A stretch of 64,000 nucleotides of DNA from Pseudoalteromonas sp. (GCF_036960685.1 NZ_JBALXK010000003.1:244172-308171), one strand, 5' to 3'. Positions 43,250-62,392 are shown, counted from the first letter of the stretch. Notes: generated by a model not told the origin, from the letters alone. Made by a program: numbers and translations.

Positions 43250-45418
43250 TTACTGATAAGCCTTTTGTTGAATAAGTAAAAGCAACTCAGCGGTAGCGCT
43301 AGCATCAGCTAAAGCACGGTGATGGTTAGTTAATGCTAAGCCAAAATGCGCGGATAAGTTACCAAGCGAGTAAGACTTAAGCCCTGCAAAGGCTTTACGT
43401 GATTCAACCACAGTACACAGCTTGGGCATTTTAAAATTAATGCCTGCCATTTCACACTCTTTACGGATAAAGCCATAATCAAAATTGACATTGTGGGCGA
43501 CAAAAATACTGCCTTGTAACTTGCTCACTAGTGTATCGGCAATGTGGTTAAAGCTAGGTGCAGACGCAACCATGGCGTCGGTGATCCCCGTTAACGACAC
43601 AATAAATTTAGGAATACGCATTTGCGGATTCACCAGTGTTGACCAAGTTTCGATAACCTTGCCGTGCTGCATTTTCACAAGGCCAATTTCAGTGATCCGA
43701 TTGCCGCCTTTTAAATTACCGGTTGTTTCAATGTCGACCACACTGTAAATACGGTTAGGGTCGTTAACCCAATTCACGGCTGCAATTTGTACGTTAAATC
43801 TAGATTGTTTCAGGTTATCGATGGTGGTTAGCTGATTACGCCTAAGTTTATCACCGGGCGCTTTAACCTCTTCAAAATAGACGGTGCTGTCCTTTAAAAT
43901 CATTAGATCAGGGTAGCCGTCTTTTAGTTCTAAAAAGCGCATGCTCATGTTTTTTAAGTGGCTTTTTAGCGCTGTAACAGGGCTATTTAAAATAAGTACT
44001 TCTAATGGTTTTAACAGCTCAGTGTGCCAACGAAATAAGCCATTTGGTTGCTCAAAATAGCGCGCCGCGTTTTTGCACACATGCTTTAGTAAATCATCAG
44101 GTGTTTGCCACTGCGCAAGTAGTGCATCAATTTGCTGCTGTTGTGTGTGATAAAAGCTATTCGCGCGCAATACGTGTGGAAATAAATCAAATTCATTACA
44201 CGGTGGGTGAGGCGTTTCTACGTAAAGTTCGTGCCAAAATACCAGGCCAAACAGGCTTTGCCATAGCGTGTTCTCGGTGTTAAATGCTTGCAGGCCTTGG
44301 TTTGCATAATACTGTGCCACTCCTAGCTCTACATCGCCGCGATAAATCTCATCTATTTCAATTACACACTGTGTATCCGCAAGCATGGTGCTTAATCGAG
44401 AGCGGGTTTGTTTATTGAATTTACGCATTAAGAAATCATCGGCAAAATAGAGCTGATCATCGGTCAGTGGATCTTCAATAATGGTTTCAAGCTTTGCTTT
44501 AACCCAGTCCTTATTACCTTGGCGATATTGCTCGCGTATTTGTATTTCTGTGGCTTCAGGACTATTTTCACAGGCGTTTAATATTTTAAAACTGAGTTTT
44601 TCATCTACTTTTTTTAGCTGCTGGTAGAGCCTCAGTAATAGCTTATTTTTAAGATTAACTGCCAGTGTGCCTTGTGCTTGTTGCGTAATTACCTCGTGAG
44701 CTAAACTTGGGTATTGCTCGTCATTTTTTATGTTCTTAAATGCCAAACGAGAGCGGTTTAACGTATAGTTCGATTTTGCCTCATCTAAAGTATCAAAGCG
44801 CGCCAAGCTCTGTTCGTGACTTTGCCTTGTTGCTCTAACGCCTAAATCACGCAGTACAAAACTATTTTGATGATTGATATCGCCACTACTTAAACGGCCA
44901 ATGTATAAAAACTCAAAGTACTCATAAATATCAGCGCGGTTGTTAATTATAAATTGGTGATACAAAGGGGTTAAATACTCAAGTTTGCAGGCAAAAAAAT
45001 CGCAAGCCTTTGTTACTAATGTCGCTTTGGCAGCACTTTTTTTAATATTCAATGTAGTCGTAAACGGCGATAGTAGCTCAAGTAATGCTGGTTTTGTTAA
45101 ATGAGCAAGCACGTGTTGGTAGTCGCTGTTGCTTGGGTGTGCAATTAGGCCCGCGTGTTCTAATTCTGTAATTGCCTGTGCCGGACTAGGTATTTCATCA
45201 TAATCGAGAGTGTGTATTGCCACTAACAAGGGCTTTCGTGAATAAATACGCGCAAGCATGCATTGGCCTTGCTCACTTAGGTTAGTAACTTGTGTAATAA
45301 AATCAAAATGCTTTTGCTCTAACAAGTGATTGCATTGGGTGTTTATAAATGCGAGTAACTCATGAAAATGAGCTAAATAATATTTCGCTGGAAGCGCTTT
45401 GTGCATCACGTTTATCAT
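43250..45418 (-). CDS. FAN1-like VRR-NUC nuclease fused to a C-terminal DEDDh 3'-5' exonuclease
   Basis: YYLAHF N-terminus; GYPDL...FEEVKAPGD.L...Q; then VVDIETTG, FVAHNVNFD, CTV and HHRALADA. Confidence 0.9.
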   Translation of the reverse strand: MINVMHKALPAKYYLAHFHELLAFINTQCNHLLEQKHFDFITQVTNLSEQGQCMLARIYSRKPLLVAIHTLDYDEIPSPAQAITELEHAGLIAHPSNSDYQHVLAHLTKPALLELLSPFTTTLNIKKSAAKATLVTKACDFFACKLEYLTPLYHQFIINNRADIYEYFEFLYIGRLSSGDINHQNSFVLRDLGVRATRQSHEQSLARFDTLDEAKSNYTLNRSRLAFKNIKNDEQYPSLAHEVITQQAQGTLAVNLKNKLLLRLYQQLKKVDEKLSFKILNACENSPEATEIQIREQYRQGNKDWVKAKLETIIEDPLTDDQLYFADDFLMRKFNKQTRSRLSTMLADTQCVIEIDEIYRGDVELGVAQYYANQGLQAFNTENTLWQSLFGLVFWHELYVETPHPPCNEFDLFPHVLRANSFYHTQQQQIDALLAQWQTPDDLLKHVCKNAARYFEQPNGLFRWHTELLKPLEVLILNSPVTALKSHLKNMSMRFLELKDGYPDLMILKDSTVYFEEVKAPGDKLRRNQLTTIDNLKQSRFNVQIAAVNWVNDPNRIYSVVDIETTGNLKGGNRITEIGLVKMQHGKVIETWSTLVNPQMRIPKFIVSLTGITDAMVASAPSFNHIADTLVSKLQGSIFVAHNVNFDYGFIRKECEMAGINFKMPKLCTVVESRKAFAGLKSYSLGNLSAHFGLALTNHHRALADASATAELLLLIQQKAYQ

Positions 45419-46232: not shown

Positions 46233-46287
46233 CTGACAAGTGCAGCTTATGTGCTCATGAGCTTAGCGTGGTTTATGCGGGGGAAAT

Positions 46288-46318
46288 AAAAGCAGGTGAG
46301 TTAGCTCACCTGCTTTTT
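46288..46318 (-). terminator. Terminator of the S8 protease gene (could act in both directions)
   Basis: aaaagcaggtgag-ttag-ctcacctgctttt. Confidence 0.8.
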
Positions 46319-46339: not shown

Positions 46340-49300
46340 TTAATCTAGCGAGTAAGCACGTAATACCGATTGATCAGTGCTGTTGTTTTTAGCATCAGTC
46401 ACAATCACACGTAAGTGAACAAATTGACCAGCCTCAGCGGCATTTGGAATAGTTGCATACCATTGACCACCAATATTCTCAACTTTTGCTACTTCTGAGA
46501 TATCCTCAGGTAGTACGCGGTCATTAAGTGTCGGATAGCTAGTGCTTTCGTCTTGACGACATCTGCCATAGCCATACATTCTACATTCACGGCCGTAGCT
46601 GTAGCTTACTTGTACATTGGTTAAATCAACAACGCCGTCAGCTTCAGATACAGCACCAATTTTGATTTTTACAGGTGTATTTGCAGTCGCCGTATTTTGT
46701 AAGTCTAAAGGCACATCAATAGAAGGTATTAACATTGATTGCGGCCCTTGGCTATCAGCGCTGGTGGTAAACGTGTGAGTTACGAAAAGTTCTGCACTTA
46801 GCTGTTCATTAGCTTGGTGAGTTGCACCTACTGCACGCTTAGAAGTATTGATTGAATATTCGACTACGGCCGGTTCATCAGGTAGCTCTAAGTAACCATT
46901 ACTTAAATAAACTTGTTCACCGTTGAGTGTTAAACCATAAGATGAACTTAGACTGTACCCTAAACCACCATCATGACCATTACTATCACCATATGCAGCA
47001 TTTGCAATGTGCAATAGATTTGTATCGCGATAAGCGCGCGAGCGACCACTGGTTAGTAAAGCGGCGCCCCAAGGTGCTTTATCCCAGCTTGTTGCTGTGT
47101 GGCTACCAATAACATGTTCTCGAGAACCATCAAATAAGCCACCATCGGTGTTAAAGTAAATACTTGGCATAACTAGATTAGTCCAAGCGACCCTTGGTAA
47201 TGCTTTATCTTTACCTTTTAGTGGTTCTGCCGCTTTAGTTGCCGTAAAGTACTCAGTACGCACGCTTGGTGTGGCAATTAGCTGTGGGCTGCCCGTGGCA
47301 TAAAACTCTCCTGTGCTTGGTAGATTTGCATAAATATCAGAATACTTAATGCGGGCTTCACCTTGTGTATAGTGGGTTGTTTCGATGGCTGATAAATCTT
47401 TGTTTTTAACTTTAATGGTGCCTGTCATGATTTTACCATCATTCAAGTGCGCTAAGTTATAAACATAAGGTGAATGCTCATGCGCAATACCTGACCAGTT
47501 AATTGTTAACTCTGGATTTTGTTCTAACTCTGCATAGATTTTTTCCATTTCACTTTGCGCAATTGCTGCCACTGGAATATCGTAGCGGCCAGATATGTTT
47601 GGTTTATAGCGGCCAGTACGATTATTAACAGAACCAATTACACCTACAGCGCCATGCTCTTGTGCATTTTTGATTTGCGTGCCAGTAATATAAAAGTCTG
47701 CATCGACGAGAGCAATTTTACCTGCGACATCAAATTGACTCCAATCAGTTGAGTAACCACCATCACCGACCGCAACAACCTCAGCGCTGCCTTGGCCATT
47801 AAATGATTTTGCAGCACCTGCTAAAATGTACTCAAGTTGGGTGCCGTTTTCAGTGGTGATAACGGGTTTTGGCGCAAAAGCACGGGTTGTTAAAAAGCTT
47901 CTAAAACGCTCATCATAGCCAGTTGATTTTGTATAAAAACCAGTTACATAGTCAGGCGCAAGTTCCATTGCAGCGAGCTTCAGTGTGTCTTTTTCGCTTA
48001 ACGCATAAGTGAAACCAAATGAGAAACCTTGCATTTGTGAAGGTTTATCCGTTTTAAAGGTCACAGGCTCAGCGGTGCTTGCATCAAAACTAATACTGGT
48101 ATCTACGTCTAAATCCACACCTAATTCGGCCATCATAGTTGCAGATTCTACTAAGCCGCCAAAAGGGGTTGGATTATCATAAGTCATAATATGACTGACA
48201 ACACTGTATTTACCTTTCGGTAGTTCAACAGTCGCTGTACCATTGGTAAATTGACCTGATTGACCCCAAGTATCTTCACCACTCATGATATAAAACTTAG
48301 ATGGGCTTGCTGCCGGAAGGCCTAAACGGTCATTGGCATTAAGTATTAGGTTCATTGTTGGTGGTTCAATCCAGAAGGATACAGGCACGGTAATCTTTTG
48401 TAAGTCGTCAAACTTACCATTTTTATAATGGCCTTTCTTTTTGCCATTGTGAGATTTTACCTCCGTCCCTTTAATACGACCTGTTATCGTACCGTAAGCT
48501 GCGTTTTCTAGTGCTACAGTTGGGTTGATCCACACCGGTACTTCAACGCTGCTGTTAGCTCCAATTGTAACGCGTTTAGCATCAAGACCTGCAAGGTTGT
48601 AGGCTGATAATGGCTTGTCGTCTTCACCGACAAAAGTCACCTCTAAATCAAATGTCACATCTTCATCACTGATATTTTCTAAAGTAACACTGCTTTGGTG
48701 ACTTTCAACCGGGTTTTGTGAGTCAAAGAAACCCAGTTCAAGGTTTGGTTGCGCAATTACAGATTGCACCATCGCTTGGTTGACGTCCATTGGACCCGCG
48801 CCTTGGTCAAGTACATGGGCACGGGTTTCGGTGACAGATGAAGTTAAAACTGCTTTTAATTGCTGTGGCGTAAGCTCTGGGCGAGCTTGTAATACCACTG
48901 CTGCACCGCCTGCAACGTGTGGTGCAGACATCGAAGTTCCTGAGTTAGCACGATACGCATACTCGCCTTTACCACCTGATGCTGCCGCGATAACGTTCAC
49001 ACCTTGAGAGGTAATATCAGGTTTGGCTGAGTGCCCATCTGGTGAAGGACCTCGGCTTGAGAATTCAGCGGTTACATTTTCACGATCTGCGGCGCCAACG
49101 GTTAAGGCATATGGTGAACAACCTGGAGAGCCAATAGTTTCACGGATAAAATTGTTACCTGCAGAGATGACGAATAACGCTTGATCTTTTAATGCTTCAA
49201 CCATTTCAACCATAGGGCCGTCACAGGCTGTCACTGAGCCACCTAACGACATATTAACGATATCAGCACCATTATCAACGGCCCACTGCATACCAGCAAG

Positions 49301-50302
49301 AATGCCAGACGTTGACCCTGAACCATTGTCAGCCAGTACTTTAGCAATCAACAAATCAGCACCTGGTGCCATACCAACATATTTACCATTACTTGCAACA
49401 CCAGAACCTGCAACGGTTGAAGCGGTATGCGTACCATGGCCATTTAAGTCATCAATATTTGGCGTGTTGTAACTGCTGAAATCTTGATACATGAAAATGT
49501 TAGTTTGCAGATCTGGGTGATCGGTATCAAAGCCAGTATCGAGAACGGCAACTTTGATCCCTGTACCATCGTAATCTACAGCGTATGGGCCATAAGCACC
49601 TGTTAGTGGCACAGTTGGTGATGTTTCATCTGCCGCTATTTGATTTTTCCACCAGTGATCTTTATCTTTTTTACCTTTGCCCTTATTGTGGCCTGGGTTG
49701 TTTTTAGCTGGGTGTTTATGAGCGAATACCATGCCATCTAGCCATACGCCTTCAACTGCAGTATTTGCTGAAAGGCCCTCAATTACGTCTTCGAGGTTAT
49801 CTTTGTTGACTTCCATTACTACACTGTCGATAACTTTGAATTGTGCTTTGACTTTGGCACCAGGCATCGCCATTGAAAAAGGCTTTTCATCAAAGCTGTT
49901 GTCACGATATTCAACAATGATTTGCAGAGAGTCAGAGCTGGCATCATCAAAGCCTGCTTGATAGAGCTTATCAATATTGAAAAGCTCCATATCTAAGGCG
50001 CCAGAGTCAACTTTTGCTTGTACAGATGCCGGGATCACGTAGCTCTCACCGCCACGTTTAAATAGACTGGTAAATGTTTCTTGACCGTCTTCAGCAAGTA
50101 AACGAATGCCACCAATAGTGCCATCGGTATTTAAACGGGCAGCAACTTTATCACCGGTGATTAGGGTAAAACTAAGGTTTCTTTCAGAGCTCTCAGGTTG
50201 TGCGTCTGCAAAGGCATGGCTACTGATGGTAGATAATAATCCAACATAAAGCGTTTTTCGCAAAGCACGCGTTAAAGTGGAAAGATTTGGTTTTTTTTTC
50301 AT
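46340..50302 (-). CDS. Large secreted S8 subtilase: signal peptide, pro-domain, catalytic domain, PA domain and C-terminal domains
   Basis: Triad motifs VAVLDTG, NGHGTHTAS and SGTSMSAPHVAG; PA-like VAGKIALV. Confidence 0.95.
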   Translation of the reverse strand: MKKKPNLSTLTRALRKTLYVGLLSTISSHAFADAQPESSERNLSFTLITGDKVAARLNTDGTIGGIRLLAEDGQETFTSLFKRGGESYVIPASVQAKVDSGALDMELFNIDKLYQAGFDDASSDSLQIIVEYRDNSFDEKPFSMAMPGAKVKAQFKVIDSVVMEVNKDNLEDVIEGLSANTAVEGVWLDGMVFAHKHPAKNNPGHNKGKGKKDKDHWWKNQIAADETSPTVPLTGAYGPYAVDYDGTGIKVAVLDTGFDTDHPDLQTNIFMYQDFSSYNTPNIDDLNGHGTHTASTVAGSGVASNGKYVGMAPGADLLIAKVLADNGSGSTSGILAGMQWAVDNGADIVNMSLGGSVTACDGPMVEMVEALKDQALFVISAGNNFIRETIGSPGCSPYALTVGAADRENVTAEFSSRGPSPDGHSAKPDITSQGVNVIAAASGGKGEYAYRANSGTSMSAPHVAGGAAVVLQARPELTPQQLKAVLTSSVTETRAHVLDQGAGPMDVNQAMVQSVIAQPNLELGFFDSQNPVESHQSSVTLENISDEDVTFDLEVTFVGEDDKPLSAYNLAGLDAKRVTIGANSSVEVPVWINPTVALENAAYGTITGRIKGTEVKSHNGKKKGHYKNGKFDDLQKITVPVSFWIEPPTMNLILNANDRLGLPAASPSKFYIMSGEDTWGQSGQFTNGTATVELPKGKYSVVSHIMTYDNPTPFGGLVESATMMAELGVDLDVDTSISFDASTAEPVTFKTDKPSQMQGFSFGFTYALSEKDTLKLAAMELAPDYVTGFYTKSTGYDERFRSFLTTRAFAPKPVITTENGTQLEYILAGAAKSFNGQGSAEVVAVGDGGYSTDWSQFDVAGKIALVDADFYITGTQIKNAQEHGAVGVIGSVNNRTGRYKPNISGRYDIPVAAIAQSEMEKIYAELEQNPELTINWSGIAHEHSPYVYNLAHLNDGKIMTGTIKVKNKDLSAIETTHYTQGEARIKYSDIYANLPSTGEFYATGSPQLIATPSVRTEYFTATKAAEPLKGKDKALPRVAWTNLVMPSIYFNTDGGLFDGSREHVIGSHTATSWDKAPWGAALLTSGRSRAYRDTNLLHIANAAYGDSNGHDGGLGYSLSSSYGLTLNGEQVYLSNGYLELPDEPAVVEYSINTSKRAVGATHQANEQLSAELFVTHTFTTSADSQGPQSMLIPSIDVPLDLQNTATANTPVKIKIGAVSEADGVVDLTNVQVSYSYGRECRMYGYGRCRQDESTSYPTLNDRVLPEDISEVAKVENIGGQWYATIPNAAEAGQFVHLRVIVTDAKNNSTDQSVLRAYSLD

Positions 50303-50367
50303 TATTTATCCTTAGATTGATGATTTATTGTGTTTTTGTATTTAGTCGTTCTGATGGTCGATAACCA

Positions 50368-50907
50368 TTAGTGGTGAGTGATTTGCTTATCTAATGTGAC
50401 GGATTTAATTGTTGGGTCGTTACTTATCTGTAGCCACGTTTGAGTTAATTTAGATTTATCTAATCGAATAAACTGTGTGTTGATAGCGGGATAAAATTGA
50501 CTGTCTATTCCTGCTGTTAGGCGTTGCTGTGGAACTGAGTATTTAACTAACACAGGCAGGTAGTTGCTATTGCGATCATCAAGTTTTAGTGACACCAGTT
50601 TTGATAAGTTAAACAGCTCAACATTGACCCTACCTTGCTTTATAAGGGATTGTGTGTGGTTGGGAATTAAATAGGTCTGTGCATTTTTTACATAAGCAAT
50701 AAATGTGCTAGTAGGGTCGTTTAATCGAGCGTGGGCAATCGATTGCGTTTGGCTAATATCGAAAATCGCGACATCCCCCGTGATCAGGGTTATTTGCTGC
50801 TGCGCAATTTTATTAGCTGAAACCACAGGGCGCACAAGCGCAGCTACGTGAGTACTGGCAATACCCATCAAAATAATTAATACAACCAGTAATAGTTTAT
50901 TACTCAA
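50368..50907 (-). CDS. Secreted stand-alone paralog of the S8 pro-domain
   Basis: Signal peptide, then TLITGD...YLIP...ELFNLSKL...DD...LPVLVKY...VTLD, colinear with the protease pro-region. Confidence 0.8.
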   Translation of the reverse strand: MSNKLLLVVLIILMGIASTHVAALVRPVVSANKIAQQQITLITGDVAIFDISQTQSIAHARLNDPTSTFIAYVKNAQTYLIPNHTQSLIKQGRVNVELFNLSKLVSLKLDDRNSNYLPVLVKYSVPQQRLTAGIDSQFYPAINTQFIRLDKSKLTQTWLQISNDPTIKSVTLDKQITHH

Positions 50908-51246: not shown

Positions 51247-51260
51247 ATTGAACGTTCAAT
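51247..51260. promoter_or_regulatory. BetI operator
   Basis: Perfect palindrome ATTGAACGTTCAAT, 11 bp before the betI ATG; matches the core of the E. coli BetI operator. Confidence 0.85.
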
Positions 51261-51271
51261 TAATAAAAATT

Positions 51272-51862
51272 ATGCCTAAAGTTGGAATGGAACCTGTCCG
51301 TCGTCAGCAGCTAATTGACGCAACAATAGAGTCGGTTGCTGAGCTTGGTTTACAAGGCACAACGATTAATAGCATCAGTAAAAAAGCCGGTTTGTCGTCA
51401 GGCATTATTAGTCATTACTTTGGTGGCAAGCAGGGACTTATTGAAGCAACGGTGCGTTATTTATTAACCAACTTGAAGCGAGAGTTGATTGAACGTGTCA
51501 CAGTAACGACTACGCCAGAGCAAAGGCTGATGTTTATAATTGAAGCAAACTTTGCACGCTTACAGCTGCAAAGCGATACCACTAAAACCTGGTTAAGCTT
51601 TTGGGCGCAGTCAATGCATGATGTGCAATTGCATCGCCTGCAAAACGTTAATAGCCGCCGTCTTTTTAGTAACTTAACCAGTTCATTCAAAGCATTAATG
51701 AATGATGATGATGCCAAGCTTGCAGCTGAACTTTGTGCGGCAATGATCGATGGGCTTTGGTTAAGAGCGGTGTTGAGTAAGTCAGACGAAAATCAATTTG
51801 AACATTGCGAACGCTTAGCCAAAGGCTATGTAAATTCACTTATCAAACAGTATGGAGCTTAA
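51272..51862 (+). CDS. betI: Transcriptional repressor BetI (TetR family)
   Basis: [18 protein letters not shown] and WLSFW..SMH...L.RLQ.VN.RRL.SNL. Confidence 0.96.
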
Positions 51863-53327
51863 TGTGACAACGCCTGTTTATCAAAATTTTATCAACGGTC
51901 ATTTTTTAAAAAATCAAAGTGGCGATACTTTCGCAGTTAAAAACCCGGCCACTGATGAAGTAATTTATCATGTAGAAGTCGCCGATGCGTTTGTACAAAA
52001 TGCAGCAATTGAAAGTGCTAAGCAAGGTTTTGCTACGTGGTCAGCAATGGCACCCATTGAGCGTAGTCGTATTTTATTAAAAGCCGTTGAATTACTACGC
52101 GCACGTAACGATGAGTTAGCAAAAATTGAAGTACTCGATACAGGTAAGCCTTGGCAAGAAGCAGAGTGTGTTGATGTACAAACAGGTGCTGATGTTATTG
52201 AATATTTTGCAGGACTCGCTCCTGCGCAAGTTGGCCAGCAGCAAATGGTTGGCGAAGATTTTTATTATACCCGTAAAGAGCCATTAGGGATTTGTGCAGG
52301 GATTGGCGCATGGAACTACCCATTACAAATAGCCTGCTGGAAATCAGGCCCTGCGCTTGCTGCGGGTAATGCGCTTATTTTTAAACCTTCAGAAGAGACG
52401 CCGCTTGGCGCAATTAAACTGGCAGAAATATTTTTTGAAGCGGGCGTACCTGCGGGTGTGTTTAATGTTGTACAAGGTGCGGCTGAGGTTGGCCAGTGGT
52501 TAACGCAAAGCGATGATATCGAGAAAGTATCGTTCACAGGTGAAGTAGGCACAGGTAAAAAAGTGGTCGCTAGTGCCGCAGGTTCACTTAAAGACGTGAC
52601 CATGGAGCTCGGTGGTAAGTCACCATTATTAGTGTTTGATGATGCTGATATTTCGCAAGCGGTAAGCGCGGCGATGCTGGGTAACTTTTATACGCAAGGC
52701 GAAATTTGCACTAACTGTACCCGTATTTATGTTCATAAGAACGTCTATCAGCAATTTATTGATGAGCTTAAAGCGCGCACAGAGCAAAATATTATTGCTG
52801 GCGACCCAATGGATCCTGAGGTGAACTTTGGTGCGCTTATATCAAAGAAGCATCATGATTTAGTGATGGGTTACATCGACAAAGGCATTAGTGAAGGCGC
52901 AACTTTGCTTACTGGCGGTAAGGCGCTTAACCCAGAGTCTGCCCCGAACGGTTATTTCGTTGCCCCAACCGTATTTATTGATTGCAACGACGACATGACT
53001 ATCGTTAAAGAAGAGATTTTTGGTCCAGTGATGAGCGTGCTGGTGTTTGATGATGAAGATGACGCAATTCGCCGTGCTAATGATACTCACCTTGGTTTAG
53101 CCGCTGGTGTATTTACCAAAGATATTAAGCGTGCACACCGTGTTATTCATCAGTTGCAAGCGGGTATTTGTTGGATCAACAGTTATGGTAATTCACCAGC
53201 CGAAATGCCGGTTGGTGGCTACAAACAATCGGGTATTGGCCGTGAGAATGGTATCGAAACCCTAGATCACTACACCCAAACTAAATCAATTTATGTTGGT
53301 ATGACAGATATAGAGAGCCCATTTTAA
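51852..53327 (+). CDS. betB: Betaine-aldehyde dehydrogenase
   Basis: [39 protein letters not shown] and EEIFGPV. The start may be GTG 51864. Confidence 0.95.
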
Positions 53328-54997
53328 TGACTGCACATACTTATGATTACATCATAGTCGGTGCAGGCTCAGCAGGGTGTGTATTGGCTAATCGTCTGTC
53401 AGAAGACAACAATAATCGTGTTTTATTGTTAGAGACTGGCGGCAGCGATAAAAGTATTTTTATCAAAATGCCTACAGCCTTGTCTATTCCAATGAACACC
53501 GATAAATACGCATGGCAGTTTCACACTCAAGCGGAACCCTTTTTAGATAACCGCAAAATGCATTGCCCACGCGGTAAGGTATTAGGTGGTTCATCGTCTA
53601 TCAATGGCATGGTTTACGTACGTGGCCACGCCAAAGATTTTGATGAGTGGCAACAACATGGTGCGAACGGTTGGGATTATCAATCATGTTTACCGTATTT
53701 TCAAAAAGCCGAAACCTTTTATTTAGGCAAAGATACATACCGTGGCGGCAACGGCCCGCTGGGCGTTAATAACGGTAATGAAATGGCCAACCCATTGTAT
53801 AAAGCCTTTATTAATGCCGGTCAGCAGGCAGGTTATGCGACTACAGATGATTACAATGCTGGGCAGCAAGAAGGGTTTGGGCCAATGCACATGACTGTTA
53901 AAGACGGTGTGCGCAGCTCTGCAAGTCGTGAATATTTAGACCCAGTTAAATCGCGCAGTAACCTTACTGTAGTCACAGGTGCGCTTGCTGAAAAAGTATT
54001 ACTCGAAGGCAAAAAAGCCACAGGTATTGAGTACAGTATTAATGGTCAAAAACAGCAAGTATTTGCAAATAAAGACGTTATATTGAGTGCAGGGCCAATC
54101 GGTTCTCCGCATTTACTGCAGCTTTCAGGCATTGGTGATAGTGAAACCCTAGCGGCAGCGGGTGTTGAGGTTAAACATCATTTACCGGGTGTGGGCCAAA
54201 ACCTGCAAGACCACTTAGAGTTTTATTTTCAATATAAGTGTAAGCAGCCAATTACTTTAAATGGCAAGCTGGGGCTTATTTCTAAAGGGCTAATAGGCGC
54301 ACGTTGGTTATTAAGCCGCAGCGGTTTAGGTGCGACCAATCACTTTGAATCATGTGCGTTTATTCGTTCAAAAGCAGGGGTAGAGTGGCCAGATATTCAG
54401 TATCATTTTTTACCGGCTGCTATTCGCTATGATGGTAAAAGTGCCTTTGCTGGCCATGGTTTCCAAGTGCATGTGGGCCATAACAAACCTAAAAGCCGCG
54501 GGGCGGTGACGATTACGTCTGCTGATCCTACGGTTGCACCAAAAATTCAGTTTAATTATTTACAGCATCAAGATGATATTGAAGGGTTTAGAGCGTGTGT
54601 ACGTTTAACCCGTGAAATCATTGAGCAAAACGCATTTGATGACTATCGCGATGATGAAATTCAGCCGGGTAAAGACATCCAAACCGATGAGCAAATTGAT
54701 GCTTTTGTGCGCCAAGCGGTTGAGAGTGCTTACCATCCATCTTGTTCATGCAAAATGGGTGAAGATGAACTGGCAGTCGTGAACTCAAATACGCAAGTTC
54801 ACGGTATTGAAGGGCTGCGAGTGGTTGATTCGTCAATCTTCCCAACGATACCAAACGGTAATTTAAATGCGCCAACCATTATGGTGGCAGAAAAAGCGGC
54901 AGACTTAATTTTAGGTAAGCCATCACTTAGTAAATCGCAAGTAAAGGTTGTCATTGCATCACAATGGCAAACTGTGCAGCGTAGCTCGGAGATTTAA
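53327..54997 (+). CDS. betA: Choline dehydrogenase
   Basis: [35 protein letters not shown] and GNLNAPTIM; TAATG coupling to betB. Confidence 0.96.
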
Positions 54998-55129
54998 CTC
55001 GGCCACCTGGAGTGCATGGCACTTTGGGGCTTGCAGTGGCGCGCATCATAAGTAGTTTGTGGTGCGTTAATGCGAGATTAAAACACGGAGATACAATGAC
55101 CTATTATCATTTATTTTGGGGGGCAAATT

Positions 55130-56347
55130 ATGACCTTATGGCTTAGTGCTGGCATTATTTTTACCCTACTGGCAATTATCGCAATTTTAGTAAAATGGGG
55201 AAACGTAAAGTGTGTAGGCGTCACACCGGTTAGAACATTTACCTTTATCGCAATCTTATTTACATCAGGCCTAGACGTTGGCTTGATCATGTTTCCGCTA
55301 ACAGAGTTTGCAGGTTATGCAGACATAAAAGCAAGCCCAGAATATGCGTTTGCCAATCCACTGGCCATTGAGTTTGGTTATTGGGGCTTTCTTATCTGGG
55401 GATTTTATTTCCTTACGTGCTTTTATTTCTGTGTAATAGAACCTAAAGTAAAATTTTTCGAAATTCCTTTGGTTAAATTAATCAATAATATTGTTATTAT
55501 TGGTACTTGTGCATTTACTGCTTTTTTATTGCTGTCTAACTTACCTTGGTACTTGCCGAGTCTCGGCGATGGTGAATCGCTCATTCCTTCGTTTTATTTA
55601 ATCGTCTTTGCAGCGATTTGCTTTGCTGTGTATTCCAGCACTGATATTAAATATGTACGCTTTTTAAGTATCTCAACGACTTGGCTATTCATTGCCTTAA
55701 TTGGCTTTATGTGGGTTGGTGCGTTTATGGGTGAAAACGGGCAAGTGTCTGACTTTACAAATAACCTTGCATCTATCGGTAATTACTTTGGCAACATTAA
55801 TGAGTTTGTTTTACCGCTTAATGATTACCATGAGTTTTACTTATTTTGGTGGTTTGCGTGGAGTATTATGATTGGTCAGTTTACCTCTCGTTTTGTGGGT
55901 GGCTTAAAAACTTATCAGGTATTGGGCGCGATGCTTATTTTCCCGTCAATCCCAATTGCGATTTGGTTTAGCGTGCTTTATCAATATCACGAAGCGGGTT
56001 TACCAACGCAAGGTATTAAAAATATCGCCATGGTATTTGTTGGGGTGGTGTTTGTGATCAATTCACTTGATTCGCTGATCCGTTTATACACTGACAATAT
56101 GAATATCACCGTTAAGCGATTAGGTAAATTTAACTATATTGCACTAAATATAGTGGCTCTTTCATTGTTAACTTTGTTATTTAAACTAAACTTTTTACAA
56201 ATACAATGGGTTGGGGCACTGGTAATTGGCTTGTTTTTTGGTTGCGCAGCATATATTGCATACAGCAAGTTTAAAACAGTGAGCAACATTGATAGCTCGC
56301 CAAAAGATAACAAAATTGACTATACAAAAATTGAATCAGTAAGCTAA
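55130..56347 (+). CDS. Short BCCT-family (choline/betaine) transporter
   Basis: TSGLDVGLIMFP and FWWFAWSIMIGQF..R motifs; multiple TMs; position in the bet operon. Confidence 0.85.
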   Translation: MTLWLSAGIIFTLLAIIAILVKWGNVKCVGVTPVRTFTFIAILFTSGLDVGLIMFPLTEFAGYADIKASPEYAFANPLAIEFGYWGFLIWGFYFLTCFYFCVIEPKVKFFEIPLVKLINNIVIIGTCAFTAFLLLSNLPWYLPSLGDGESLIPSFYLIVFAAICFAVYSSTDIKYVRFLSISTTWLFIALIGFMWVGAFMGENGQVSDFTNNLASIGNYFGNINEFVLPLNDYHEFYLFWWFAWSIMIGQFTSRFVGGLKTYQVLGAMLIFPSIPIAIWFSVLYQYHEAGLPTQGIKNIAMVFVGVVFVINSLDSLIRLYTDNMNITVKRLGKFNYIALNIVALSLLTLLFKLNFLQIQWVGALVIGLFFGCAAYIAYSKFKTVSNIDSSPKDNKIDYTKIESVS

Positions 56348-56356
56348 GGAATTAAC

Positions 56357-57064
56357 ATGACAACACAAAAAACATTACTTGCAGTTGCACTGCCAATGGC
56401 ACTTTTTTCGGCATCTGCACTAGCTGACTGGTCAACGACCATCACGGGTGTATCTGACTATACCTTTAACGGTGTGAGTCAAACCAACAATGATCCTGCA
56501 ATTCAAGGTAGCCTTGATTATTCATTTGGTGAGTCGGGTATGTACGCCGGCACGTGGGCATCAAATGTGGATTTTGGTGATGATACTAATATTGAATGGG
56601 ATGCTTATTTTGGCCGTTACGCGCAGTTAAACGATGCATTTAGCGTTGATTATGGTTTAGCGTATTACAGCTATCATGGGCAAAGTAATTCAAGCGATGG
56701 TAATTATTTTGAAGCCTACACAAAATTTGGTTATGTCAGTGAATTGGGCCAAACCGAGCTTAACTTTTGGTACAGCTGGGATTACTTTGGTACAGGTGCA
56801 GGCCATGTGATCTCTATGGTTGCGCATACGATTGAACTTGCGCCAAATCATGCACTGCGTGCCAGCTTTGATATTTCTAATTCACTTGATGGCGATAAGT
56901 TTGCATGGGATACCGATGGTAAATCATATAACCACTACCGTTTAGCGTATCAAACAAGCCTAGCTGGTTTTGATATAGAAGTAGCGGGCGAGAACACTAG
57001 CTTAGATATCGATACTGCCGATGAGCGTATAGTGTTATCTGTTGGTCGTACTTTCTCACTTTAA
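56357..57064 (+). CDS. TorF-like putative porin (TIGR02001 type)
   Basis: Signal peptide, SDYTFNGVSQT...PAIQGSLDY, YAGTWASNVDF, C-terminal Phe-containing strand. Confidence 0.85.
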   Translation: MTTQKTLLAVALPMALFSASALADWSTTITGVSDYTFNGVSQTNNDPAIQGSLDYSFGESGMYAGTWASNVDFGDDTNIEWDAYFGRYAQLNDAFSVDYGLAYYSYHGQSNSSDGNYFEAYTKFGYVSELGQTELNFWYSWDYFGTGAGHVISMVAHTIELAPNHALRASFDISNSLDGDKFAWDTDGKSYNHYRLAYQTSLAGFDIEVAGENTSLDIDTADERIVLSVGRTFSL

Positions 57065-61981: not shown

Positions 61982-62392
61982 TTAGCAAAGCTGTTTTACT
62001 TCATCAAGTTGTATATGCTCTATCACAGGGTCATTTAGTAATATTTTAAACACGTTAGCTGCTTGGGATTTTTCAATATTGGCGCTGCTAAAATTAATGA
62101 TTTTGAACTGCCGCTTGATGGTTATGCCCGTAATCAAATTAAGCGGCTGTTGATGCTTGATTAGCACCGGTAATACTGTTTTTGTATCATCGTATTTTGC
62201 TAAAGCAAGTTTTGATACGTTAAATAAATCTTTAGCGAGTTTACCTGCATTAATAAATGGCACGACCGTATCAGGTATAAAGAATATATGCCCAAGTCGG
62301 TCACAACTTTGGCTTCCTGTGCAGTTCAGTGGCTTGACGATGTTATTACTGAACTCGATGACATCGCCATTGATCAAAGTAAATTGTGCCAT
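61982..62392 (-). CDS. Stand-alone S8 pro-domain paralog without a signal peptide
   Basis: FTLINGD...FFIP...DLFNVSKL...YDD...LPVLIKH...IQLD, colinear with the protease pro-region and with the 50368-50907 protein. Confidence 0.75.
   Translation of the reverse strand: MAQFTLINGDVIEFSNNIVKPLNCTGSQSCDRLGHIFFIPDTVVPFINAGKLAKDLFNVSKLALAKYDDTKTVLPVLIKHQQPLNLITGITIKRQFKIINFSSANIEKSQAANVFKILLNDPVIEHIQLDEVKQLC

What the first reader, a model, noticed from the sequence alone, without database searches (positions are those of the whole stretch)
46340..50907. A giant subtilase is preceded by a separate secreted gene that encodes only a copy of its own pro-domain
Seen in sequence: the 179-aa ORF at 50368-50907 aligns by eye along its whole mature length with the pro-region of the 1320-aa S8 protease 65 bp downstream. 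Matching blocks (protease vs ORF): FTLITGD/ITLITGD, YVIP/YLIP, G.LDMELFNIDKL/G.VNVELFNLSKL, FDD..SDSLQIIVEY/LDD..SNYLPVLVKY, VNKDNL...VWLD/LDKSKL...VTLD. The small gene stops just after the LD motif, where the pro-domain ends, and has its own signal peptide. Established: subtilisin propeptides (I9-like) are intramolecular chaperones and tight inhibitors, and free I9-type inhibitors exist in fungi (POIA1, yeast IB2). Inference: this is a dedicated protease plus free-propeptide pair acting as a periplasmic or extracellular inhibitor, or as a trans-chaperone. I do not know of a description of this arrangement in marine bacteria.
Basis: partly seen in the sequence, partly recalled or inferred. Interest (0 to 1): 0.82.

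Follow-up and report, generated by a model that had tools for sequence, protein, structure and literature searches.

The report
Free-standing subtilase pro-domain copy beside protease
A small exported protein encoded just upstream of a giant Pseudoalteromonas subtilisin-type protease is an intact, selected copy of that protease's own pro-domain and stops at the predicted pro-domain cleavage point, so it most likely plugs the enzyme in trans, a role shown so far in eukaryotes.

Summary
The 179-aa ORF (50368-50907, minus strand) is homologous over its whole mature length to residues about 43-195 of the 1320-aa S8+PA protease that starts 65 bp downstream (BLASTP E 9e-15).

It is not a decaying fragment:
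- dN/dS is 0.17-0.27 over dS up to 0.98.
- Length is kept at 179-202 aa.
- An exported small gene lies directly upstream of every 'long' (1313-1330 aa) protease examined, in four Pseudoalteromonas species, Colwellia sp. Arc7-D and metagenome contigs. It lies upstream of none of the 'short' (1232-1277 aa) relatives.

The small proteins form their own old clade. All alleles but one end exactly six residues after an invariant Asp, with Ile/Met at the aligned P4 position and His/Tyr at P1, as at the protease's predicted cleavage junction. An AlphaFold model of protease residues 1-529 superposes best on unprocessed pro-subtilisins.

My best reading is a periplasmic or extracellular trans inhibitor that mimics the cleaved pro-domain. 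This is inferred and untested (about 0.55). A trans-chaperone role is less likely.

Small-gene and protease alleles are shuffled by recombination, so the pairs do not co-evolve tightly. A third copy without a signal peptide lies at 61982-62392. I rate this a new bacterial variant of a known eukaryotic theme.

The parts
50368..50907 (-). Small gene ('SEC' type): 179-aa exported stand-alone copy of the protease pro-region. It ends ...VTLDKQITHH*, six residues after the invariant Asp.
   Evidence: ORF. Homology to the protease N-terminus. dN/dS 0.17-0.27. Orthologs P0003-P0005, P0052, P0053 and P0058. AF2 model with pLDDT 83.
50839..50907 (-). Predicted Sec signal peptide of the small protein (residues 1 to about 23, MSNKLLLVVLIILMGIASTHVAA|LV). 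The cleavage site is inferred.
   Evidence: The hydrophobic window has a Kyte-Doolittle mean of 3.53. Residues 1-28 are low-confidence in the AF2 model. A hydrophobic leader is present in every allele despite sequence divergence.
50303..50367 (-). 65-bp intergenic spacer carrying AAGGA about 6 nt before the protease ATG. It has no terminator, so co-transcription is likely (inferred).
   Evidence: Sequence. No terminator-like site. No significant hairpin (z -0.74).
46340..50302 (-). 1320-aa secreted subtilase of the 'long' type: signal peptide, pro-region, Lys-rich linker, S8 catalytic domain, PA domain and a C-terminal extension.
   Evidence: Pfam S8 and PA. Triad D255/H289/S457. Homologs of 1313-1330 aa.
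49718..50176 (-). Cis pro-region of the protease (residues about 43-195): beta subdomain, short helices, then an I9-like half ending WLDGMVFAH.
   Evidence: Alignment A1. In the AF2 model residues 41-194 are confident and 191-194 form a strand. Foldseek's best hits are unprocessed zymogens 3afg, 3whi, 2e1p and 1r6v.
49619..49717 (-). Lys-rich linker (residues about 196-228) with an HWWK motif, seen in the long-type proteases aligned here. It is predicted to be disordered.
   Evidence: pLDDT below 50 for residues 197-218. Comparison of long-type and short-type sequences.
48806..49567 (-). S8 catalytic domain (residues 246-499).
   Evidence: Pfam PF00082, E 1.1e-57. PDB sequence hits 3afg and subtilisins.
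47537..47785 (-). PA (protease-associated) domain (residues 840-922).
   Evidence: Pfam PF02225, E 1.3e-9.
46286..46318 (-). Intrinsic terminator after the protease stop codon: a 13-bp stem followed by a U-run.
   Evidence: Fold energy -21.6 kcal/mol, z -4.23, 0 of 200 shuffles as stable. Sequence.
61982..62392 (-). Third copy ('CYT' type): 136-aa stand-alone pro-region paralog without a signal peptide, next to a flavodoxin-like ORF and a XerD-like integrase ORF. It ends ...QLDEVKQLC*, again six residues after the Asp.
   Evidence: Orthologs with 41-93% identity in about 20 Pseudoalteromonas species. The clade is monophyletic at 100/99 support.

Best explanation
The small gene encodes a free-standing, Sec-exported paralog of the whole two-part pro-region of the adjacent giant S8+PA subtilase. 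It is probably co-transcribed with the protease.

Proposed mechanism (inferred). After export, the small protein binds the catalytic domain the way a cleaved cis pro-domain does. Its I9-like sheet lies on the catalytic domain. The invariant 'LD' Asp corresponds to the helix-capping Asp71 of the subtilisin BPN' propeptide. The free C-terminal tail (Ile/Met at P4, His/Tyr at P1) lies in the substrate cleft like a bound product. It would therefore act as a trans inhibitor or latency factor. It would keep the protease silent in the periplasm or near the cell after the protease's own pro-domain has been cut and degraded.

Shown here: homology, exact end point, purifying selection, conserved adjacency, and a pro-subtilisin-like arrangement in the model of the protease's own pro-region.

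Inferred: export, co-transcription, binding and inhibition.
For: 1. Homology over the full module: BLASTP E 9e-15. The 18-sequence alignment has invariant T-L-x-x-G, LFN, DD, K and LD.
2. The protease 1-529 model (pTM 0.81) has a confident pro-region, a strand at 191-194 and a disordered linker at 197-218. It superposes best on unprocessed zymogens: 3afg with 407-435 columns and 3whi with TMt 0.80-0.82. Mature subtilisins give only about 295 columns.
3. Eight of the nine distinct small-gene alleles examined end exactly at Asp+6, as (I/M)-x-x-(H/Y). This matches the protease junction V-F-A-H|K. An hhalign comparison with the BPN' propeptide gives the same register: Asp on Asp71 and the last residue on Tyr77, which is P1 (weak).
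4. Purifying selection: dN/dS 0.17-0.27 over dS 0.1-0.98, with length kept.
5. Conserved pairing: the small gene lies directly upstream of every long-type protease examined. These are the window, L009-L011, L026 (P. shioyasakiensis), L027 (Colwellia sp. Arc7-D), L032/L033, G051, G085 and G511. It lies upstream of none of 14 Pseudoalteromonas species with short-type proteases, nor of the Pseudoalteromonas and Microbulbifer controls.
6. The small proteins form an old monophyletic clade (100/99 support) that is not nested inside the long-type pro-regions.
7. The small protein's amino-acid sequence changes at least four times faster than the cis pro-region. Against L027, dN is about 0.9 versus 0.21. 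This fits a binder without a folding role.
8. A signal peptide is present in all alleles. There is no terminator in the 65-bp gap and a strong one after the protease.
9. Precedents: stand-alone propeptide-like subtilase inhibitors SUB1-ProM, POIA1, PBI2, SPI-1 and TgMIC5 (PMC6993865), and the C-terminal tail of Aeromonas ORF2 in the ASP active site (PMC5638518).
Against:
- The protease keeps its own, highly conserved pro-domain, so the need for a second copy is not obvious.
- There is no Pfam I9 hit. Foldseek with the small-protein model alone found nothing below E 0.17, only generic ferredoxin/RRM-like folds.
- Small-gene and protease trees are incongruent, and 37%-identical small proteins sit next to 93%-identical proteases. 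Any interaction therefore rests on the few conserved motifs and not on pair-specific co-evolution.
- One allele (L032/L033) has a longer tail, LDKQIPPSLMVTGH.
- No complex model could be built with these tools.
Confidence: 0.55

Rival explanations
1. Trans-acting folding chaperone (foldase). The small protein helps the catalytic domain fold in the periplasm, as ORF2 does for the propeptide-less Aeromonas sobria serine protease. Any inhibition would be only a transient by-product.
For: - It has the same module as the cis pro-region, and classical subtilisin propeptides are intramolecular chaperones (established knowledge, summarised in PMC6993865).
- It is adjacent to the protease and probably co-transcribed.
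- There is a bacterial precedent: ORF2 is encoded next to asp, is required for active ASP, and inserts its C-terminal tail in the active site (PMC5638518).
- Long-type proteases differ from short-type ones by a disordered Lys-rich linker after the pro-domain. This might weaken cis chaperoning (speculative).
Against: - The protease retains a complete cis pro-region under strong constraint (dN/dS 0.04-0.11). ASP, in contrast, lacks a propeptide.
- Short-type relatives manage without any partner gene.
- The small protein evolves several times faster than the cis pro-region, and its alleles are swapped freely among protease alleles. That is not expected of an essential, shape-specific folding template.
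Confidence: 0.15
2. Decaying 5' remnant of a duplicated protease gene, or a chance ORF with no function.
For: - It is a paralog of the 5' end of the neighbouring gene.
- It has a TTG start with a weak ribosome-binding site.
- It carries no annotation beyond 'hypothetical protein'.
- One metagenome contig carries a deletion that destroys both genes.
Against: - dN/dS is 0.17-0.27 over dS up to 0.98, with no frame disruption.
- The clade is monophyletic and old, not nested in the long-type pro-regions.
- It is conserved at 179-202 aa with a signal peptide across alleles that share only 26-37% identity, and across two genera.
- The 65-bp spacer leaves no room for catalytic-domain remnants.
- The stop is placed at Asp+6 in eight of nine alleles.
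Confidence: 0.02
3. The module is not, or not only, a removable pro-domain. It could be a binding or regulatory domain used in several contexts. The secreted and cytoplasmic stand-alone copies would then act on other partners, such as other proteases, including those of competitors, or unrelated ligands, and not on the adjacent enzyme.
For: - The extra five-strand beta subdomain has no counterpart in classical I9 domains.
- The cytoplasmic copy occurs in three Pseudoalteromonas species (G507, G528, G531) that have no protease with this pro-region at E<=1e-6.
- Small-gene alleles are deeply divergent and recombine independently of the protease. This pattern would also fit selection from outside the pair.
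Against: - The exported copy shows strict adjacency with the long-type protease, in 4 of 4 Pseudoalteromonas species with a long-type protease plus Colwellia sp. Arc7-D and the metagenome contigs.
- The C-terminus sits exactly at the P1-equivalent position with protease-like P4 and P1 residues.
- In the profile search the module otherwise occurs almost only at the N-terminus of S8 proteases of 1000-1400 aa.
Confidence: 0.15

Closest known systems
Plasmodium SUB1-ProM and the other stand-alone subtilisin propeptide-like inhibitors (Pleurotus POIA1, yeast PBI2, Arabidopsis SPI-1, Toxoplasma MIC5; MEROPS I9) - PMC6993865
   Same: Each is a small separate gene product that copies the subtilase propeptide fold. 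SUB1-ProM is encoded next to its subtilase genes and travels to the same compartment. The proposed action is tight, propeptide-like inhibition of an enzyme that still has its own propeptide.
   Different: All of these are eukaryotic. Most are single I9 domains of about 70-80 aa with little sequence similarity to the cognate propeptide. Here the protein is bacterial. It is a clear sequence paralog (E 9e-15) of a two-part, roughly 150-aa pro-region, has no Pfam I9 match, and its function is untested.
Aeromonas sobria serine protease ASP and its external chaperone ORF2 (PMC5638518, which cites Kobayashi et al. 2015)
   Same: This is a Gram-negative system with a small partner gene adjacent to a secreted subtilase. 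The partner's C-terminal residues occupy the active site, and it acts as a temporary inhibitor (IC50 about 84 nM). Similar operons are reported in Vibrio, Shewanella and Pseudoalteromonas.
   Different: ASP has no propeptide of its own and needs ORF2 to fold. orf2 lies downstream of asp. Here the protease keeps a conserved cis pro-region, the small gene is upstream, and the small protein is a paralog of that pro-region.
Tannerella forsythia potempins upstream of the KLIKK peptidase genes (PMC9890683)
   Same: Small ORFs lie immediately upstream of secreted peptidase genes and encode dedicated inhibitors of the downstream enzyme.
   Different: Per that paper's abstract, potempins are outer-membrane-anchored lipoproteins. 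From my own recollection they are not homologous to the peptidases' pro-domains, and I did not check this here. The protein here has no lipobox and is a pro-domain paralog.
Classical cis propeptides of bacterial and archaeal subtilases (subtilisin E/BPN' pro-form 3whi, ProN-Tk-SP 3afg, pro-Tk-subtilisin 2e1p, fervidolysin 1r6v)
   Same: The model of protease residues 1-529 superposes on these zymogens, pro-part included. The tail ends at P1 with an Asp six residues earlier, as with Asp71...Tyr77 in BPN'.
   Different: Here there is an additional N-terminal five-strand beta subdomain, no Pfam I9 hit, and separately encoded copies besides the cis one.

Membership tests
MEROPS I9 / Pfam PF05922 Inhibitor_I9 (subtilase propeptide) | Significant match to the I9 sequence profile | tested here: not met
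   There is no Pfam family for the small protein or for the protease N-terminus at E<=0.01. At E<=10 there are only sub-threshold hits to two other subtilase prodomain families, each in one of 18 members: Fervidolysin_NPro-like (E 0.0057) and CspB_prodomain (E 0.18). NCBIfam gives nothing.
MEROPS I9 / Pfam PF05922 Inhibitor_I9 (subtilase propeptide) | [quoted passage not shown] | tested here: inconclusive
   The protease 1-529 model aligns with whole zymogens (3whi TMt 0.80-0.82; 3afg 407-435 columns). This supports a canonical placement of the cis pro-region. The small-protein model has strand-strand-strand-helix-strand preceded by short helices. Searched alone against the PDB it gave only generic ferredoxin/RRM-like hits at E>=0.17. 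Model coordinates could not be inspected.
MEROPS I9 / Pfam PF05922 Inhibitor_I9 (subtilase propeptide) | C-terminal tail ending at the P1 residue of the processing site | tested here: met
   The evidence is by alignment only. Eight of nine exported alleles, and most cytoplasmic ones, stop at Asp+6. This aligns with ...LDGMVFAH195 of the protease.
Stand-alone propeptide-like subtilase inhibitors (SUB1-ProM type) | Separate small gene product, not derived from a larger precursor, conserved as such | tested here: met
   Intact ORFs of 179-202 aa occur in at least nine distinct alleles and two genera, with dN/dS 0.17-0.27.
Stand-alone propeptide-like subtilase inhibitors (SUB1-ProM type) | Measured inhibition of a subtilase | not testable with these tools
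   This needs purified proteins and an activity assay.
External chaperone of a propeptide-deficient subtilase (Aeromonas ORF2 type) | The cognate protease lacks a propeptide of its own | tested here: not met
   The protease has a complete and conserved cis pro-region.
Pseudogene or decaying duplicate | dN/dS near 1, frame disruptions, variable length, catalytic remnants downstream | tested here: not met
   dN/dS is 0.17-0.27, there are no stops, and length is conserved. The 65-bp spacer is all that separates the two genes.

The most novel reading that the evidence does not exclude
One giant subtilase may be controlled by paralogs of its own pro-domain in three places:
- the cis pro-domain on the zymogen;
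- an exported trans copy that recaptures the mature enzyme in the periplasm or at the cell surface;
- a leaderless cytoplasmic copy that guards against enzyme folding before export.

In addition, the exported copy exists as deeply divergent allele types (26-37% identity) that are shuffled by recombination among nearly identical proteases. This would fit balancing or diversifying selection, for example if the small protein also works as 'immunity' against the proteases secreted by neighbouring strains.
Probability: 0.12. Interest if true: 0.78.

Novelty: new variant of a known kind. Interest (0 to 1): 0.55.

Why it matters
Secreted subtilases are major agents of marine protein turnover and are important industrial enzymes. 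How Gram-negative cells keep such large proteases silent on the way out is poorly known.

In the sources I read, stand-alone propeptide mimics that inhibit subtilases are documented in fungi, plants and apicomplexans. The best-studied bacterial partner protein I found, Aeromonas ORF2, serves an enzyme that has no propeptide.

This locus is a clear bacterial case of a separately encoded, exported sequence paralog of the pro-domain next to an enzyme that keeps its own. It comes with natural allele swaps and a leaderless third paralog. It therefore gives a directly testable system for three questions:
- trans-latency versus trans-folding;
- which pro-domain residues are needed for binding alone;
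- whether the small protein could serve as a specific, genetically encoded off-switch for this protease family.

The family has no Pfam or NCBIfam model and is annotated only as 'hypothetical protein'. Other notes in this scan suggest that similar free prodomain copies recur in several bacterial lineages. The general phenomenon may therefore be broader than this one family.

Tried and rejected
- **Pfam and NCBIfam scans.** No family was found for the small protein or the pro-region.
- **Profile search of PDB sequences with alignment A1.** Only a chance YhaM hit came back, at E 0.76.
- **Foldseek of the small-protein model against the PDB.** There were no hits below E 0.17, so the fold cannot be assigned from that model alone.
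- **Census with the search for related loci on genome contigs using the SEC alignment.** I used the genome search at genus and family level instead.
- **Sigma-70 promoter scan.** No consensus promoter was found upstream of the small gene, so the promoter is unassigned.
- **'Recent local duplication of the neighbouring 5' end'.** Rejected, because the exported copies form their own old clade outside the long-type pro-regions.
- **'Hyper-mutation of the small gene'.** Rejected as the cause of the contrast between 99.7% protease identity and 74% small-gene identity. Synonymous divergence also jumps (dS 0.95 against 0.01) and the identity break is sharp at about 50435. Recombination between old alleles is therefore the cause.
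- **Cytoplasmic copy strictly tied to the protease.** Weakened, because three species have the copy but no such protease.
- **Complex prediction (small protein plus catalytic domain).** Not possible with the single-chain tool.

Full report
**1. What is there**

On the minus strand, a 179-aa ORF (50368-50907, TTG start) is followed after 65 bp by a 1320-aa ORF (46340-50302). The large protein has Pfam Peptidase_S8 (residues 246-499, E 1e-57) and PA (840-922) domains. Its triad motifs are intact: D255, H289 and S457.

The small protein matches no Pfam or NCBIfam family. BLASTP of the two products gives E 9e-15 and 26% identity over 190 columns, covering the small protein end to end and protease residues 10-195.

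A search of the window's own genome found a third copy, a 136-aa ORF at 61982-62392(-). It starts directly at the first conserved block (MAQFTLINGD) and has only four more in-frame codons upstream, so it has no signal peptide.

Names attached to close homologs place the genome in Pseudoalteromonas, near P. prydzensis.

**2. Not a decaying fragment**

Database orthologs of the small protein at 96%, 79% and 70% identity are all 179-182 aa. On their contigs each lies directly upstream of a 1320-aa S8+PA gene.

Nei-Gojobori dN/dS for the small gene is 0.17-0.27 over dS 0.1-0.98, with no frame disruption.

A profile built from the three kinds of copy was searched against 1.84 billion representative proteins. 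It found 1896 hits at E<=1e-3. Nearly all of the best 150 are N-termini of S8 proteases of 1000-1400 aa, many high in G+C and actinobacterial in appearance. Most short hits are truncated or frameshifted protease fragments that run on into the catalytic domain.

True stand-alone proteins fall into two groups:
- **'SEC' (exported).** These are 179-202 aa with a hydrophobic leader, for example P0052 from P. shioyasakiensis, P0053 from Colwellia sp. Arc7-D, P0200 from P. mariniglutinosa, and P0058.
- **'CYT' (no leader).** These are 133-152 aa.

All are named 'hypothetical protein'. P0052 and P0053 share only 30-38% identity with the window's protein. Each is nevertheless directly upstream of a 1323- or 1330-aa S8+PA protease, in a different genomic neighbourhood. 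P0058 lies upstream of a protease N-terminus as well.

**3. Strict association with one protease subfamily**

Homologous proteases split into two types. The 'long' type (1313-1330 aa) carries a Lys-rich linker with an HWWK motif after the pro-region. The 'short' type (1232-1277 aa) lacks this linker.

In a census of all 140 Pseudoalteromonas species genomes held, 4 have the long type (G000, G051, G085, G511). All 4 have the SEC gene immediately upstream. Fourteen species have short-type proteases and none has a SEC gene. The family-level sample of 401 genomes adds Colwellia (G410), which has the pair, and three genomes of another genus with only short-type proteases. Direct inspection confirmed a SEC gene upstream of long-type P0018. 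Upstream of short-type P0025 (Pseudoalteromonas) and P0029 (Microbulbifer) there are unrelated genes.

**4. Age and shape of the family**

A maximum-likelihood tree of 41 pro-region modules shows SEC as monophyletic (100/99 support), CYT as monophyletic (100/99) and the long-type cis pro-regions as monophyletic (99/98). SEC is not nested in the long-type clade. The stand-alone genes are therefore old duplications and not recent copies of the neighbouring 5' end. SEC branches are much longer than those of the cis pro-regions.

**5. Structure**

The AlphaFold2 model of the small protein has mean pLDDT 83 and pTM 0.75. It shows:
- a disordered leader (residues 1-28);
- a five-strand beta subdomain (33-82);
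- short helices (83-106);
- a strand-strand-strand-helix-strand half (116-172).

Alone, this model finds no PDB match below E 0.17. Its top hits are ferredoxin/RRM-like folds.

The model of protease residues 1-529 (pTM 0.81) has the same pro-region architecture at high confidence (41-194). It also has a short strand at 191-194 (MVFA) and a disordered stretch at 197-218 before the catalytic domain.

Foldseek places unprocessed zymogens on top for this model: ProN-Tk-SP 3afg (407-435 aligned columns), pro-subtilisin E 3whi (TMt 0.80-0.82 over pro-part plus catalytic part), pro-Tk-subtilisin 2e1p and fervidolysin 1r6v. Mature subtilisins align over only about 295 columns. So the C-terminal half of the module is predicted to sit on the catalytic domain as a classical propeptide does. 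The N-terminal beta subdomain is an addition.

Pfam I9 is not matched. Only sub-threshold hits to two other subtilase prodomain families appear.

**6. The C-terminus**

In the alignment the invariant 'LD' Asp is followed by exactly six residues in the window's SEC protein (KQITHH*). The same holds for its orthologs and the other SEC types (EKINHH*, EQIKHY*, EAMKHY*, EEIYMH*) and for most CYT proteins (EVKQLC*). In the proteases the same six positions read GMVFAH, AVVHAH or AMVHAY and are followed by Lys and the linker.

An hhalign comparison with the subtilisin BPN' propeptide gives the same register. The Asp falls on Asp71 and the last residue on Tyr77, which is P1 (E 0.0016, probability 16%). 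Asp71 is one of the two helix-capping residues of the BPN' propeptide (PMC6993865).

The stand-alone proteins therefore end where a cleaved pro-domain would end, with a hydrophobic P4 and a His/Tyr P1 like the enzyme's own junction. This is the strongest sequence argument that they occupy the active-site cleft as product mimics.

One allele, seen in two independent assemblies (L032 and L033), has a frameshifted, longer tail: LDKQIPPSLMVTGH.

**7. Operon signals**

The spacer has AAGGA before the protease ATG and no terminator or significant hairpin. A 13-bp-stem terminator follows the protease stop codon (-21.6 kcal/mol, z -4.2).

The TTG start is supported by two observations. The hydrophobic leader is conserved. 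The alternative Met14 is absent in the G085/L012 alleles, and other alleles start with ATG and carry an equivalent leader.

**8. Mosaic evolution**

| Comparison | Protease | Small gene or protein |
|---|---|---|
| Window vs L009 | 99.7% nt identity (dS 0.01) | 73.7% nt identity (dS 0.95) |
| Window vs L026 | 93% aa identity | 37% aa identity |
| L032 vs window/L010 | 75-76% aa identity | 96-99% aa identity |

In the window-versus-L009 comparison the identity break is sharp, near position 50435.

Trees of the same eight loci conflict with strong support. The small-gene tree gives (G051,L026) and (W,L010,L032,L009,G085). The protease tree gives (G051,(G085,L032)) and (L026,(W,L009,L010)).

The two genes therefore recombine independently. 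Deeply divergent small-gene types coexist with similar proteases. This argues against tight pair-specific co-evolution. Any interaction must rest on the conserved motifs.

It also argues, together with the roughly four-fold or greater excess of amino-acid change in SEC over the cis pro-region, that SEC is less constrained than the cis pro-domain. That fits a binder without a folding role better than an essential foldase.

**9. Interpretation**

| Reading | Estimated probability |
|---|---|
| Exported trans inhibitor or latency factor that mimics the cleaved pro-domain | about 0.55 |
| Trans-chaperone | about 0.15 |
| Acts on other partners | about 0.15 |
| Non-functional remnant | about 0.02 |

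The identity of the gene as a selected, stand-alone pro-region paralog is close to certain. The function is inferred.

The closest precedents are:
- the eukaryotic stand-alone propeptide-like inhibitors, with SUB1-ProM encoded next to its subtilases (PMC6993865);
- the Aeromonas ASP/ORF2 pair, in which the partner's C-terminal tail plugs the active site but the enzyme has no propeptide (PMC5638518);
- the Tannerella potempins, which are upstream inhibitor ORFs (PMC9890683).

**10. The cytoplasmic copy**

The CYT copy is conserved at 41-93% identity in about 20 of 140 Pseudoalteromonas species. In the window, and in the one other genome I inspected (G013, locus L008), it lies beside a flavodoxin-like ORF and a XerD-like integrase ORF. 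Those neighbours were identified by reading the translations.

It co-occurs with a protease that has this pro-region in most species, but not in all. G507, G528 and G531 have CYT only. G011, G086, G273 and G518 have a protease only. A role as a cytoplasmic guard is possible but weaker than the case for SEC.

**11. Novelty**

I found no paper describing this family. Other notes from this scan are AI notes that I did not check. They report free prodomain copies beside subtilases in several other bacterial lineages. I therefore rate this as a new bacterial variant of a known kind and not a new category.

Noticed in passing
window 61982-62392 (-): There is a third, leaderless 136-aa paralog of the pro-region, beside a flavodoxin-like ORF and a XerD-like integrase ORF. 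It is conserved in about 20 of 140 Pseudoalteromonas species and also ends at Asp+6. Three species have it without any protease that bears this pro-region.
   Followed up: partly
window about 50300-50450, compared with L009, L026 and L032: A recombination breakpoint lies at the 3' end of the small gene. Small-gene and protease alleles have strongly incongruent trees: the same protease (99.7% nt) carries small alleles that are 70% identical, and the same small allele (96-99%) sits beside proteases that are 75% identical.
   Followed up: yes
L037 (ENA ERZ27247121 k141_668414), 1588-1602: A metagenome contig carries a 1248-bp deletion. It joins codon about 42 of the small gene to codon about 257 of the protease, out of frame, at a 15-nt overlap (microhomology). 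This is a natural null allele of both genes.
   Followed up: partly
L032 2398-2955 and L033 2437-2955: One small-gene allele, seen in two independent assemblies, has a frameshifted and longer C-terminal tail (...LDKQIPPSLMVTGH) in place of ...LDKQI(T/P)HH. It lies at the junction with a different protease allele.
   Followed up: no
window 49619-49717 (-), protease residues about 196-228: A Lys-rich linker, predicted to be disordered and carrying a conserved HWWK-like motif, lies between the pro-region and the catalytic domain. It is present in the long-type proteases aligned here, which are the ones that have the upstream small gene, and absent from the short-type ones.
   Followed up: partly
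window 43250-45418 (-): A 722-aa protein combines FAN1_HTH, VRR-NUC nuclease and RNase T-type exonuclease domains. It is conserved downstream of the protease in related contigs, and one contig (L010) shows a truncated version of it.
   Followed up: no
window 51248-57064 (+) and L026: The protease pair lies next to the betI-betB-betA / BCCT / Gcw_chp cluster in the window. In P. shioyasakiensis it is inserted at a different position in the same neighbourhood, between the SBP_bac_3 and Gcw_chp genes. The two genes therefore appear to move as a unit.
   Followed up: partly
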